Made by a program: the position numbers. A stretch of 64,000 bases of DNA, taken from assembly GCF_046105845.1 (NCBI RefSeq), contig NZ_CP151004.1; one strand, 5' to 3'. Each line of letters begins with the position of its first letter. Position 1 is the stretch's first letter. Source of the DNA: Escherichia coli (lineage in GTDB: Bacteria; Pseudomonadota; Gammaproteobacteria; Enterobacterales; Enterobacteriaceae). Shown here one piece after another: positions 42,001-45,000 of the stretch.

Positions 42001-45000
42001 AGTATAGGGGTAAAACCGTGATCAAACTGAAGACGCCAAACTCTATGGAGATTGCCGGGCAACCTGCTGTTATCACTTACGTGCCAGAACTGAATGCATT
42101 TCGTGGCAAATTCCTGGGCTTGTCAGGTTATTGTGATTTTGTCTCTGACAGCATTCAGGGGCTGCAAAAAGAAGGGGAGCTTTCCCTGCGAGAGTATCTT
42201 GAGGATTGTAAAGCTGCGGGTATTGAGCCGTATGCGCGTACAGAAAAGATTAAGACTTTTACATTACGCTATCCAGAATCGCTGAGTGAACGCCTTACTA
42301 ATGCGGCTGCGCAGCAACAAGTCTCTGTAAATACTTATATTATTGAAACGCTAAATGAGCGTTTGAATCATTTATAACTTATAGCGGCCCAACAATTTCT
42401 GTTGCGCCGCTATATTTTTGTGGCTCTTAAGATGCCTTTCTAATCAACCGATGCCCCTCATTCATCATCAGGATTTTGCTATACACATCTTCCTCGACGG
42501 CGTTTTTTGCTGATGCCATCACTCGTGCCAGATTCGCCTCGTTGTGATTATTCACATACGCTTTGCCGACGGCGGTGATAAACGCTTTGCGCAGATCGCT
42601 GGCGATATTTACTTTAGCGACGTGATAATTAACAAAGCTGCGCAATATCTCCGGGGCGATACCGGAGCCGCCGTGAATAACCAACGGCACCGGACAGACT
42701 TCGGCAATGCGCTTCAGCAAGGGGATATCGATCCGCGGTATATCGTCCAGACCATGAACGTTACCAATAGAAACTGCCAGCATGTCGCAACCGGTGCGCT
42801 CGACAAAGGTCTTCACCTTTTCCGGTTCCGTTTTGCAATCGGCTTCGCTGACGTGATCATCTTCTTTGCCGAGAATCGCCCCCAGCTCCGCTTCAACCGG
42901 TACGCCATAGGATTTACAGAAATCGACAGCTTCCTGGGTGAAAGCGATATTCTCTTCAAAAGAGAATGCGGCACCGTCAATCATGACCGAGGTAAAGCCC
43001 GCGCGCACCGCCTGTTTAACATCCTCCTGAGTTTTCCCGTGATCCAGATGAAGACTGACCGGAACATCCATTTTATCGGCGTGACGTTTCACGATTTCAT
43101 AAATGTAATCGTATCCCGAGAGTTGTGCATTGGTGGGCGCAATCTGAATGAAGTTGGGTAATCCTGAACGCTCAATGGCGTTTAAAATTGAAATCGTCGT
43201 CTCCAGATTGGTGGTATTAAACGCGCCCGCTAATACCCGTTTTTCCTGAATGCGGTCGAGCAGTATCCGTCCATTAACTAATGGCATTTGAAAACCTCAT
43301 CTTTTAATATCAGTTAATTATTCAGCTTCACCGAAGCGGTCACGAAATAAGGCGGTGAGAGTTTGTATTGCCTCATTTTCATCATCGCCTTCGCAGCGTA
43401 TTTCCACCGTTTTACCGCCTTTTATTCCGGCGCGCATAATATTCATCATGCTGGTGGCATTAATATCATTACCCTCATAATGCAGCGTCACTTTACAGCT
43501 AAACTTTTTGGCGGCTTTTACCAGACAAGCCGCCGGACGTGCATGCAGGCCAGTACTGTTTCTGACCTCCACGGTTTTACTCAACATAGTGCTCCTCCCG
43601 ATGGTGTAATGGCATCACGCCTTCTTGCTGTAATTTCAACTGATACCAGCTTTTCCATTTGTGCTGATAACGCTGTAATTGATGGTATCTCGCCCGATTC
43701 GGTAACAAACGTTGGGCTATGGTAACTTGCGGCGGTGGAATATCCGGTGCGGCAGTTAATAATGCTCCGACAGAAACCGCCTCGTTAAATGCAATTGCCT
43801 CAACCGGACGCTGTAAAATATCCGCCTTTAATTGCAGCCAAAGGGGATTATGGGTTGCCGGGCCGATTACTTTTAACGCGCTGGTGCCAGGCACATTAAA
43901 ACAGGCGAAGCAGTTGGCAAATTCCATGGTTAATCCCAGTGAGACGCTGGCAATTAACATGTCAATATTTAACGTATCGCTAAGCCCATAAAATAATCCA
44001 CGGGTATGGCGATTTTTATAGGGCGAACCCGAACCGCGAAGATGTGGAATAAAGAGGGGAATGTCATCGAGCGACCAGTTCCCCGCCAGGTAATCCGCAT
44101 GTCCGCGAGTAAGTGATGCGGCGATCTCCTCATCGGTTAGCCGGAACGTGTTACGCAGCCACTCCAGAGCGAAACCGCCCACGGGCAGCGACGCAAACAG
44201 GGTGAACTGGTTTGCAAGCGAATAACAGCCGTTTGCCAGCTTGTCACGTTTGGCCTGTTCATCCAGCGTCGGTTGTGTATCCAGTTGCAGAATGCCTTCT
44301 GTGGTCCCCGTCGAGTTAAGGATATCGCCCGGCATCATCTGCAACGCCCGTGCACCCACCATATGGTCATGTCCGGCCAGCGTCACGCTGACCGGTTGCG
44401 AGAACCCAAGCGTTTTGCAGAGCGACTCGCTGACCCATCCGGCGTGTTCGCCTGGCTGCACCAATGGCGCAAATGCTGAACAGGGAACGTGTAACAACGC
44501 CGCCGCTTTCGCTGACCATTCGCCTTTGCGCACGTCCAGACACAGCGTGCGGCTGGCTAAGGTGATATCCGTGCGCTGTTCGCCGGTCAGCCGCCAGAGC
44601 AGTACTTCCGGCGCATGTAGCCAACGCAGGCCGCGGCGATTACGCAGTGGGTAATGTTCCAGCAACCAACGCATTTTGAAGGCAGAGTAATTGCTGTGCA
44701 GCGGTAACCCGCAAATGTCATAAAGTGCCGCACTGTCTGCCTCGCTAAGTGTAGCCAGATACTCTTCACCGCGACGGTCATACCAGGCCAGCATTGGCGT
44801 CAGGATCTCGCCATGCTCGTCAAGGAACACGCCTGACTCGCCAAAACTGGCAATGCTTATCCGCCTGACTGGCAGCGGCGAAGCGGCGTTCAGTTGCGCT
44901 ATCGCCTGGCGGACCTCCTGCCAGAGGGCGTCGATATCGAAATCGACATCGCCCTGTGGGGAGATCTGTTTTGCCGTCACGAATTTATGCGCGCCCAACG

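What the first reader, a model, noticed from the sequence alone, without database searches (positions are those of the whole stretch)
43318..43587. Operon-encoded HPr paralogue implies a partly private phosphorelay
A separate 89-aa HPr-like protein with an intact His15-like site is encoded between the FGGY kinase and the aldolase. Dedicated HPr paralogues (FPr and NPr types) usually indicate insulation from, or regulatory cross-talk with, the general PTS. Here it could alternatively phosphorylate or regulate the FGGY kinase or the GntR regulator.
Basis: inference. Interest (0 to 1): 0.4.

Follow-up and report, generated by a model that had tools for sequence, protein, structure and literature searches.

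The report
Private HPr phosphocarrier in accessory sugar operon
The 89-codon gene is a genuine, conserved extra copy of the bacterial sugar-uptake phosphate carrier HPr, sitting inside an optional E. coli sugar-utilisation operon of unknown substrate; it most likely feeds phosphate to that operon's own transporter, which is an expected kind of arrangement rather than a new mechanism.

Summary
Window 43318-43587 (minus strand) encodes an 89-aa HPr-family protein with His15, Arg17 and Ser46. It lies between an FGGY kinase and a class II aldolase in a seven-gene operon: GntR, EIIA, EIIB, EIIC-Gat, FGGY, HPr, aldolase.

It matches none of the PtsH, NPr or FPr equivalog models and is closer to Firmicute HPrs than to E. 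coli PtsH. RefSeq already annotates it as "HPr family phosphocarrier protein" in about 30% of complete E. coli genomes. Salmonella STM3779-3785 is the homologous island, described as a PTS of unknown specificity.

Across 80 related loci, a linked HPr is present in every Enterobacterales version, in three gene orders and two divergent HPr types. It is absent from 28 of 32 Firmicute, Coriobacteriia and Gilliamella versions, and from all PTS-less actinobacterial kinase+aldolase versions. Three of the five closest outside relatives checked are also private HPrs inside Gat-family PTS operons, one of which has no second kinase.

The most likely role is a dedicated carrier: EI, then HPr His15, then EIIA His67, then EIIB Cys9. 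Insulation from the general PTS is untested. Control of the kinase is not excluded, but a GlpK-type His is absent and the LsrK-type pocket comparison is inconclusive.

This is a new member of a known kind, of modest interest.

The parts
43318..43587 (-). HPr-family phosphocarrier paralogue, 89 aa (His15 codon at 43545..43543; Arg17; Ser46)
   Evidence: PF00381 E 2.2e-30; TIGR01003 105.9 bits, cutoff 47.9. (best solved relative is T. tengcongensis HPr, 79.7 bits). (pLDDT 97.4; TM 0.95). (dN/dS 0.05-0.17).
43592..43599 (-). Shine-Dalgarno GGGAGGAG for the HPr gene, inside the 3' end of the kinase gene and 4 nt before the ATG. The HPr start overlaps the kinase ORF by 11 nt (43577..43587).
   Evidence: Read directly from the sequence. 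No convincing terminator or promoter between the genes.
43577..45085 (-). FGGY-family sugar kinase, 502 aa, with intact DxGTT, GHDHM and GTT motifs. Proposed second kinase of the pathway.
   Evidence: FGGY_N and FGGY_C; below every equivalog cutoff. (invariant motifs). (nearest solved structures are glycerol kinases).
42427..43287 (-). Class II ketose-(bis)phosphate aldolase, 286 aa, last gene of the operon. Its own GAGG lies at 43295..43298, 7 nt before the ATG.
   Evidence: NF005943/PRK07998 556.6 bits, cutoff 364. (nearest solved structure is AgaY, 1gvf)..
45078..46466 (-). PTS EIIC, galactitol (Gat) family. RefSeq homologues are annotated 452 aa, starting about 30 nt inside this ORF.
   Evidence: PF03611 E 1.2e-91..
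46513..46794 (-). PTS EIIB, 93 aa, phospho-Cys9
   Evidence: Cys9 is invariant in the 66 related PTS-bearing loci.
46791..47264 (-). PTS EIIA (EIIA_2, mannitol/fructose type), 157 aa, phospho-His67 in VAIPH. Proposed acceptor from the HPr paralogue.
   Evidence: PF00359 E 1.9e-33. His67 is invariant in the 66 related PTS-bearing loci.
47289..48044 (-). GntR/UTRA (HutC-type) transcriptional regulator, first gene of the operon
   Evidence: GntR and UTRA domains..

Best explanation
The gene encodes a functional HPr-family phosphocarrier dedicated to the island's own Gat-family PTS. Proposed relay: host Enzyme I (none is encoded in the island) phosphorylates His15 of the paralogue. It passes the phosphoryl group to His67 of the operon's EIIA, then to Cys9 of EIIB, then to the incoming sugar at EIIC. 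The sugar phosphate, probably a ketose phosphate, is then phosphorylated again by the FGGY kinase and cleaved by the class II aldolase. The logic matches fruBKA (FPr plus FruK), built from different parts. Shown here: family membership, intact active site, operon embedding, purifying selection, complete downstream relay sites, and strict co-occurrence with the PTS version of the operon in Enterobacterales. Inferred: the donor (EI), the acceptor (the operon's EIIA), the pathway chemistry, and any degree of insulation from PtsH.
For: (1) HPr family by profile and by fold, with His15 and Arg17 present. (2) NSTGLHARPA is invariant in 34 distinct operon-linked HPrs. The canonical partner-binding face (residues 10-28, 45-57) is far more conserved than the rest, entropy 0.52 against 1.34. 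K24 and K27 are retained, as in PtsH. (3) The gene is translationally coupled inside the operon, with no internal terminator. (4) EIIA His67 and EIIB Cys9 are invariant in all 66 related PTS-bearing loci. (5) A linked HPr is present in 22/22 group A and 12/12 group B Enterobacterales loci despite three different gene orders. It is absent from all 14 PTS-less actinobacterial aldolase+kinase loci. (6) Three of the five closest non-orthologous HPrs checked (P0063, P0097, P0068) are also embedded in EIIA_2-EIIB-EIIC-Gat operons. One of these (L098) has no second kinase, so the shared partner is the Gat-type EII. (7) HPr and EIIA are both fast evolvers (dN to Citrobacter 0.124 and 0.169, against 0.02-0.04 for EIIB, EIIC, ALD and GntR). 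This is as expected for a carrier freed from serving many partners. (8) dN/dS is 0.05-0.17.
Against: There are no biochemical data. The same operon lacks a private HPr in 28 of 32 non-enterobacterial PTS-bearing loci, so general HPr can evidently serve this EIIA family. Nearly the same type 2 HPr accompanies EIIAs that are only 25-36% identical (group A3 against group B), and there it travels with the aldolase instead. That argues against tight HPr-EIIA co-adaptation. The mirror-tree signal is as strong for FGGY as for EIIA. Some E. coli lineages carry HPr fragments lacking His15, a frameshifted EIIA or a broken GntR, so the system is dispensable in places.
Confidence: 0.6

Rival explanations
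1. Redundant passenger. The HPr gene came in with, or was recombined into, the horizontally acquired operon. It still works as an HPr, but it is functionally interchangeable with PtsH, giving no insulation and at most extra carrier capacity when the operon is induced.
For: Most Firmicute, Negativicute, Coriobacteriia and Gilliamella versions of the operon have no private HPr. In E. coli the island is an accessory presence/absence polymorphism that decays piecemeal, including HPr fragments lacking His15. dN/dS of the HPr is 3-10 times that of EIIC. By established knowledge, E. coli PtsH serves many EIIAs, and FPr can substitute for HPr.
Against: The gene is retained in 34 of 34 Enterobacterales loci through at least two rearrangements and a type 1/type 2 split. 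The partner face is strongly conserved. dN/dS remains well below 1.
Confidence: 0.2
2. Kinase-directed regulator. The paralogue, in one phosphorylation state, binds or phosphorylates the FGGY kinase and so couples the second phosphorylation step to PTS flux. The precedents are HPr-LsrK and HPr~P-GlpK.
For: In Escherichia, Citrobacter and Pantoea the HPr gene directly follows and overlaps the kinase gene, even where the aldolase has moved. HPr, EIIA and FGGY are the three fast-evolving genes, and the partial correlation of HPr with FGGY is 0.64 and 0.62 in groups A1+A2 and A3. E. coli HPr cocrystallises with and inhibits the FGGY kinase LsrK through L47/F48 and the His15 face (PMC5983913). Firmicute GlpK is activated by HPr~P at His232 (PMC10154347). 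Two close HPr relatives sit next to Dak1/Dak2 kinases.
Against: Kinase+aldolase pairs without a PTS never have an HPr. In Klebsiella, Salmonella, Cedecea and group B the HPr follows the aldolase, not the kinase. L098 has a private HPr with no second kinase. The GlpK His232-equivalent is K224 here and is variable in all groups, with no conserved His in loop 214-233. The LsrK pocket is only partly hydrophobic at aligned positions (R139, N149, T112). No FGGY-HPr fusion was found; P0061 is Sel1 repeats plus two HPr domains.
Confidence: 0.12
3. Effector of the GntR/UTRA regulator or of another non-PTS target, working as a signalling branch like NPr.
For: In group B loci GntR, aldolase and HPr form their own block, separate from EIIABC-FGGY-dehydrogenase. 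One source auto-names the Citrobacter orthologue 'NPr'.
Against: The NPr equivalog is failed (51.9 bits against a cutoff of 119), and there is no rpoN-operon context. The partial correlation of HPr with GntR is about 0.15, 0.36 and -0.14 in the three subgroups. I know of no precedent for HPr control of HutC-type GntR regulators.
Confidence: 0.04

Closest known systems
FPr, the HPr domain of FruB in the fruBKA fructose PTS of Enterobacteria. From my own knowledge, the analogous TPr domain of TagH in the enterobacterial D-tagatose PTS is also comparable.
   Same: A sugar-specific HPr encoded in the catabolic operon together with its EII, a second kinase and an aldolase step. The EIIA is of the same EIIA_2 (Fru/Mtl) superfamily. 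PMC2405797 describes FPr linked to fruA and fruK, and actinobacterial deoR-fruK-fruA-ptsH operons.
   Different: FPr is fused (EIIA-M-HPr, 376 aa), whereas this protein is a stand-alone 89-aa HPr. It is only 28-32% identical to the FPr HPr domain and scores 64 bits against a cutoff of 302 on the FruB model. The permease is Gat-family rather than Fru-family. The second kinase is FGGY rather than PfkB.
General HPr (PtsH) of E. coli
   Same: Same fold, size, His15-Arg17 site, K24 and K27, and Ser46.
   Different: 32% identity, and 56.5 bits against the 153-bit cutoff of the PtsH equivalog. It is not next to ptsI-crr. Helix 2 is M47-M48 (Gram-positive type) instead of L47-F48. N10-S11-T12, A53 and K56 are distinctive. 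It scores higher against Firmicute HPrs (60-80 bits) than against E. coli HPr (48.5).
NPr (PtsO) of the nitrogen PTS
   Same: A stand-alone HPr paralogue of about 90 aa with Ala16.
   Different: 51.9 bits against a 119-bit cutoff and 32% identity. It is not in the rpoN operon, and it is linked to a complete transporter rather than to a purely regulatory chain.
Salmonella enterica STM3779-STM3785 island
   Same: A homologous seven-gene operon (GntR, EIIA, EIIB, EIIC-Gat, FGGY at 63% identity, aldolase, HPr). It is described as a complete PTS of unknown specificity that is AT-rich and H-NS-repressed (PMC3604774).
   Different: The gene order is FGGY-aldolase-HPr. Loci with that order (group A3) carry type 2 HPr, with Gly46 and about 45% identity to the E. 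coli type; the Salmonella HPr sequence itself was not aligned. The island sits next to uhp rather than nikR.
HPr-LsrK and HPr~P-GlpK (FGGY kinases controlled by HPr)
   Same: An FGGY kinase and an HPr acting in the same pathway. The paralogue keeps a hydrophobic 47/48 pair (M-M).
   Different: No His at the GlpK-232 position, and the LsrK pocket is only partly conserved. The kinase matches the LsrK model weakly, 45.6 bits against a 528-bit cutoff.

Membership tests
HPr family (Pfam PF00381 / NCBIfam TIGR01003) | Profile score above the curated cutoff | tested here: met
   PF00381 105 bits (cutoff 23). TIGR01003 105.9 bits (cutoff 47.9).
HPr family (Pfam PF00381 / NCBIfam TIGR01003) | Active-site His15 in G-[LIM]-H-[AT]-R-P-A, with Arg17 | tested here: met
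   G13-L14-H15-A16-R17-P18-A19. Invariant in 34 distinct operon-linked HPrs.
HPr family (Pfam PF00381 / NCBIfam TIGR01003) | Open-faced beta-sandwich, beta-alpha-beta-beta-alpha-beta-alpha, about 85-90 aa | tested here: met
   AF2 pLDDT 97.4 with the matching topology. Foldseek TM 0.95-0.96, rmsd 0.9 A to 3le3/3lfg. All 41 hits at E<=1e-3 are HPr, Crh or NPr.
HPr family (Pfam PF00381 / NCBIfam TIGR01003) | Accepts phosphate from Enzyme I at His15 and donates it to an EIIA | not testable with these tools
   This needs an in vitro phosphotransfer assay.
General HPr, PtsH (NCBIfam NF008104 / PRK10850) | Equivalog score of at least 153 bits | tested here: not met
   56.5 bits. 32% identity to MG1655 PtsH.
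General HPr, PtsH (NCBIfam NF008104 / PRK10850) | Encoded in ptsH-ptsI-crr | tested here: not met
   It lies between an FGGY kinase and an aldolase in an island between hicAB and nikR. The K-12 ptsHI-crr locus is elsewhere.
NPr (PtsO; NF008146 / PRK10897) | Equivalog score of at least 119 bits, and rpoN-operon context | tested here: not met
   51.9 bits. The context is a sugar operon. K-12 npr follows rapZ.
FPr / diphosphoryl transfer protein (FruB; NF008319 / PRK11109) | Fused EIIA(Fru)-M-HPr polypeptide | tested here: not met
   It is a stand-alone 89-aa protein, and 64.1 bits is well under the 302-bit cutoff.
FPr / diphosphoryl transfer protein (FruB; NF008319 / PRK11109) | Encoded with a sugar-specific EII and a second sugar-phosphate kinase | tested here: met
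   The operon contains EIIA, EIIB, EIIC, a kinase and an aldolase. This is a functional analogy only.
HprK-regulated HPr / Crh type | Conserved Ser46 regulatory site | tested here: inconclusive
   Ser46 is present here and in all type 1 sequences, but it is Gly in type 2 (A3 and B). The absence of HprK from E. coli rests on general knowledge and was not tested.
GlpK-type FGGY kinase phosphorylated by HPr~P | His at the position of E. casseliflavus GlpK His232 in the activation loop | tested here: not met
   The aligned residue is K224, which is variable in all groups. No conserved His lies in residues 214-233.
LsrK-type FGGY kinase that binds HPr | Hydrophobic pocket (LsrK L123, I148, L151, L152, A155, Y162, M210, A211) that accepts HPr residues 47/48 | tested here: inconclusive
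   The aligned residues are L113, A135, M138, R139, L142, N149, L197 and L198. The alignment is at about 20% identity.

The most novel reading that the evidence does not exclude
The private HPr is not just a spare carrier. It would be a host-compatibility or coupling device that Enterobacterales repeatedly recruited when they acquired a Firmicute-type Gat-PTS/FGGY/aldolase operon. In the first version, the foreign EIIA cannot be charged by enterobacterial PtsH, which would give a truly insulated branch fed only by EI. In the second version, the Gram-positive-like HPr binds the operon's FGGY kinase, so that a kinase acting on a PTS-made ketose phosphate fires only in step with PTS flux. This would be a new HPr-FGGY regulatory pair. 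It would also imply an FGGY kinase that acts on an already phosphorylated sugar.
Probability: 0.15. Interest if true: 0.6.

Novelty: new member of a known kind. Interest (0 to 1): 0.3.

Why it matters
The island is carried by about 30% of complete E. coli genomes, including O157:H7 and ABU 83972. Its Salmonella homologue is reported as a gain of subspecies I (PMC3604774). The substrate and the role of the extra HPr are unknown in both organisms. If the paralogue really insulates this PTS from PtsH, sugar use through the island would escape part of the normal hierarchy. Because it still draws on EI, it could also perturb the phosphorylation state of the general PTS. The comparative pattern found here gives a concrete, testable handle on why bacteria keep private HPrs. 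The pattern is that the HPr is always present in Enterobacterales and mostly absent in Firmicutes, even though EIIC is 76% identical. If the paralogue turns out to be interchangeable with PtsH, the finding is ordinary gene-content variation.

Tried and rejected
(1) Rosetta-stone fusion. P0061 (594 aa, HPr at its C-terminus) looked like an FGGY+HPr fusion by size, but Pfam shows Sel1 repeats plus two HPr domains.

(2) GlpK-type phospho-His in the kinase. The aligned position is K224, and no His is conserved in the loop. H130 and H348 are invariant in PTS-linked kinases and are N/Q in PTS-less ones. About ten non-His positions show the same split, and both residues fall in motifs near the active site. 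I therefore read them as substrate-specificity markers, not regulatory sites.

(3) LsrK pocket mapping was inconclusive at about 20% identity.

(4) Mirror-tree partial correlations do not separate EIIA from FGGY as the partner.

(5) Monophyly of type 1 and type 2 HPrs could not be settled. The reciprocal scores (about 62-85 bits) are no better than those to P0063, P0068 or P0097, so one gain cannot be told from two.

(6) Literature searches on STM tags, on HPr+FGGY+galactitol+aldolase+GntR, on FGGY+EIIC+aldolase+HPr+operon, and on guessed EDL933 tags Z4878-Z4883 found no functional study. The Z-tag search returned only unrelated papers.

(7) A fused-chain AlphaFold run to test HPr-EIIA against HPr-kinase docking was considered and not run, because the tool returns no coordinates or PAE from which to judge an interface.
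Full report
**Observation**

The ORF at 43587..43318 on the minus strand starts with ATG and encodes 89 aa: MLSKTVEVRNSTGLHARPAACLVKAAKKFSCKVTLHYEGNDINATSMMNIMRAGIKGGKTVEIRCEGDDENEAIQTLTALFRDRFGEAE.
- It matches Pfam PTS-HPr at E 2.2e-30.
- It scores 105.9 bits on the NCBIfam HPr-family model TIGR01003, whose cutoff is 47.9.
- It falls far below the cutoffs of every equivalog: PtsH 56.5/153, NPr 51.9/119, FruB 64.1/302, DhaM 52.7/520.
- His15, Arg17 and Ser46 are present.
- An AlphaFold2 model built on a 53-sequence alignment has pLDDT 97.4 and the HPr topology.
- The model superposes on T. tengcongensis HPr at TM 0.95-0.96, rmsd 0.9 A, and all 41 significant PDB hits are HPr, Crh or NPr.

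**Anatomy of the locus**

On the minus strand the genes run in this order:

| Gene | Coordinates |
|---|---|
| GntR/UTRA regulator | 48044..47289 |
| EIIA_2 | 47264..46791 |
| EIIB | 46794..46513 |
| EIIC-Gat | 46466..45078 |
| FGGY kinase | 45085..43577 |
| HPr | 43587..43318 |
| Class II aldolase (PRK07998 equivalog, 556.6 bits) | 43287..42427 |

- EIIA and EIIB overlap by 4 nt, EIIC and FGGY by 8 nt, and FGGY and HPr by 11 nt.
- A GGGAGGAG Shine-Dalgarno lies 4 nt before the HPr ATG, inside the kinase gene.
- A 30-nt spacer with GAGG precedes the aldolase.
- Consensus scans show no convincing internal promoter or terminator.
- No Enzyme I is encoded in the island or elsewhere in the roughly 48 kb of the locus for which RefSeq annotation was retrieved.

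**Distribution in E. coli**

- The island lies between yhhJ-hicAB and nikR.
- It is complete in 1,631-1,635 of 5,426 complete E. coli genomes. Other genomes have yhhJ-hicAB-nikR without the operon, or neither element.
- RefSeq already names the gene "HPr family phosphocarrier protein".
- Island GC is 41-59%, against 55-60% in the flanks.
- Decay is piecemeal. EIIA is frameshifted in O157:H7 YB14-1, GntR has an internal stop in strain 2012C-4221, and 57-aa HPr fragments lacking His15 occur on megabase contigs.

**Relatives**

- At the 50%-identity representative level the clade is narrow. Only its own cluster and P0036 score above 100 bits, after which scores drop to about 80 bits.
- Against solved structures it scores 79.7 bits with T. 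tengcongensis HPr, 54-63 with Bacillus, Lactobacillus and Staphylococcus HPr or Crh, 48.5 with E. coli HPr and 41.9 with NPr.
- Salmonella carries the homologous operon next to uhp, in the order FGGY-aldolase-HPr.
- The literature describes STM3779-3785 as an AT-rich, H-NS-repressed island encoding "a complete PTS with unknown specificity" (PMC3604774).
- I found no functional study of the island or of its HPr.

**Comparative neighbourhoods**

I scanned one genome per species with an FGGY alignment. I then annotated the 80 loci by phmmer with the window's proteins plus an HPr HMM. Four groups emerged.

- **Group A, Enterobacterales orthologues (kinase 61-98% identical).** All 22 have the seven genes, in three orders:
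  - FGGY-HPr-ALD in Escherichia and Citrobacter.
  - GntR-ALD-EIIABC-FGGY-HPr in Pantoea and E. cancerogenus.
  - FGGY-ALD-HPr in Klebsiella oxytoca, Cedecea, Rahnella, Trabulsiella and, by a separate look-up, Salmonella.
- **Group B, a second enterobacterial system (kinase about 36% identical).** The order is EIIABC-FGGY-[Zn alcohol dehydrogenase]-GntR-ALD-HPr, and 12 of 12 loci have the HPr.
- **Group C, 32 PTS-bearing loci from Firmicutes, Negativicutes, Coriobacteriia and Gilliamella.** Only 4 have an HPr within the fetched flank:
  - In Paenibacillus it is a ptsH-ptsI pair placed after the kinase.
  - In three Bacillus loci it is a stand-alone HPr 1.4-3 kb downstream.
- **Group D, 14 actinobacterial loci.** These have aldolase plus kinase and further FGGY kinases, with no PTS and no HPr.

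**Evolutionary rates**

| Protein | A1 vs A3 identity | dN, window vs Citrobacter |
|---|---|---|
| EIIC | 89% | 0.022 |
| EIIB | 85% | 0.039 |
| ALD | 86% | 0.043 |
| GntR | 88% | 0.033 |
| EIIA | 61% | 0.169 |
| FGGY | 64% | 0.147 |
| HPr | 45% | 0.124 |

- dN/dS for the HPr is 0.05-0.17, against 0.01-0.02 for EIIC.
- Enterobacterales and Enterococcus share 76% EIIC identity but only 36-38% kinase identity.

**Two HPr types**

- Type 1 (A1, A2) keeps Ser46.
- Type 2 (A3, B) has Gly46 and always follows the aldolase.
- The two types are 40-46% identical to each other and 25-33% identical to PtsH, NPr or FPr.
- No other gene shows the same (A1, A2 | A3, B) split. ALD is 80-89% identical between groups A3 and B, while EIIA is 25-36% identical. 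The aldolase and HPr have therefore moved as a module.
- Whether the HPr was gained once or twice cannot be resolved.

**Conserved surface**

- Across 34 distinct operon-linked HPrs, N10-S11-T12-G13, H15-A16-R17-P18-A19, K27, M48, A53-G54 and K56 are invariant, and A20 is conserved in 97%.
- The canonical partner face has mean entropy 0.52, against 1.34 elsewhere.
- EIIA His67 (VAIPH) and EIIB Cys9 are invariant in the 66 related PTS-bearing loci.

**Which partner?**

Evidence that the partner is the EII:
- The HPr is never found with PTS-less kinase+aldolase pairs.
- Three of the five nearest outside relatives checked (P0063, P0097, P0068) are private HPrs in EIIA_2-EIIB-EIIC-Gat operons with a PRD regulator and an Aldolase_II. 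Two of these have Dak1/Dak2 kinases and one (L098) has no second kinase. The element common to all of them is the Gat-type EII.

Evidence that the partner could be the kinase:
- Type 1 HPr genes overlap the kinase gene.
- HPr-FGGY partial correlations are 0.64 and 0.62 in groups A1+A2 and A3, similar to HPr-EIIA at 0.69 and 0.40.
- E. coli HPr binds LsrK, an FGGY kinase (PMC5983913).
- Firmicute GlpK is phosphorylated by HPr~P at His232 (PMC10154347).

Tests of the kinase idea:
- The His232-equivalent residue is K224, which is variable, and no His is conserved in the loop.
- The LsrK pocket is only partly conserved, in a low-identity alignment.
- No FGGY-HPr fusion exists among the top hits.

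**Conclusion**

The gene is a functional HPr-family member and most likely acts as an FPr-like dedicated carrier for the island's Gat-type EII, drawing on host Enzyme I.

Its strict retention in Enterobacterales and its usual absence elsewhere suggest a host-specific benefit, such as compatibility or capacity. That benefit, any insulation from PtsH, and the substrate are all untested.

The pathway logic is inference: PTS, then an optional GatD-like dehydrogenase in group B, then the FGGY kinase, then a class II aldolase related to AgaY. It parallels the gat, fru and tag pathways.

**Caveats**

- Loci were retrieved by two kinase peptide patterns, from one genome per species.
- An HPr was looked for only within 10 kb of the kinase.
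- The counts are not phylogenetically independent.

Noticed in passing
window 41700-42380 (+ strand), next to the aldolase end of the operon: A hicA/hicB type II toxin-antitoxin pair sits between yhhJ and the island. Many E. coli genomes keep hicAB but lack the 5.8-kb PTS operon cleanly, and others lack both. The yhhJ-nikR junction therefore has three states.
   Followed up: partly
L095 9474-9948 (O157:H7 YB14-1); L001 13990-14736 (strain 2012C-4221): The island decays piecemeal. EIIA is frameshifted in an O157:H7 strain while the HPr stays intact, and the GntR regulator has an internal stop in another strain. The second case might derepress the operon.
   Followed up: no
L054 11503-12537; L072 11495-12529 (group B loci); also L058 and L068 (Bacillus): The second enterobacterial system and the Bacillus versions carry a zinc-type (MDR) alcohol dehydrogenase after the kinase, like GatD of the galactitol pathway. 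This suggests a polyol-using variant of the same PTS, kinase and aldolase scheme.
   Followed up: partly
window 43577-45085 (FGGY kinase), residues H130, H348, K484 and about nine others: Twelve positions are invariant in all PTS-linked kinases (groups A, B, C) and different in the PTS-less actinobacterial kinases. They include H130 (N in actinobacteria), H348 (Q) and K484 (L). This may mark binding of an already phosphorylated sugar, which would be unusual for an FGGY kinase. The actinobacterial loci carry extra FGGY kinases that could replace the PTS step.
   Followed up: partly
Loci L027-L041 against L007-L026: EIIC is 76% identical between Enterococcus and Enterobacterales, whereas the kinase in the same operon is only 36-38% identical. 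About 35-42% is the level between all four major groups. Either the kinase evolves very fast or it has been replaced.
   Followed up: no
L090 1110-8267; L092 2497-8225; L098 2014-8475: This is a separate, apparently uncharacterised operon type: EIIA_2-EIIB-EIIC-Gat, a PRD/Mga regulator carrying an EIIA_2 domain, a class II (PF00596) aldolase, a private HPr, and either Dak1/Dak2 kinase subunits or an Fe-ADH. In L090 the HPr directly follows Dak1-Dak2, and no EIIA-Man-type DhaM is present.
   Followed up: no
window 32810-34501 and 34763-36385 (+ strand): Two adjacent long ORFs correspond to tandem DUF4049-domain proteins of unknown function in the RefSeq homologues, followed by the tiny yhiY gene.
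   Followed up: no
L097 26762-27742 (E. coli O169:H41): That strain has an extra DUF3829-domain gene between the GntR regulator and nikR. The window has no such gene; there the GntR ORF ends at 48044 and the nikR ORF begins at 48234.
   Followed up: no
window 42300-48200: The window's allele of the island is uncommon. The best full-length match among 5,426 complete E. coli genomes is 98.8% identical, and most carriers are 90-97% identical. dS is about 0.2 against the Escherichia whittamii and Escherichia sp. MOD1-EC7003 copies.
   Followed up: no
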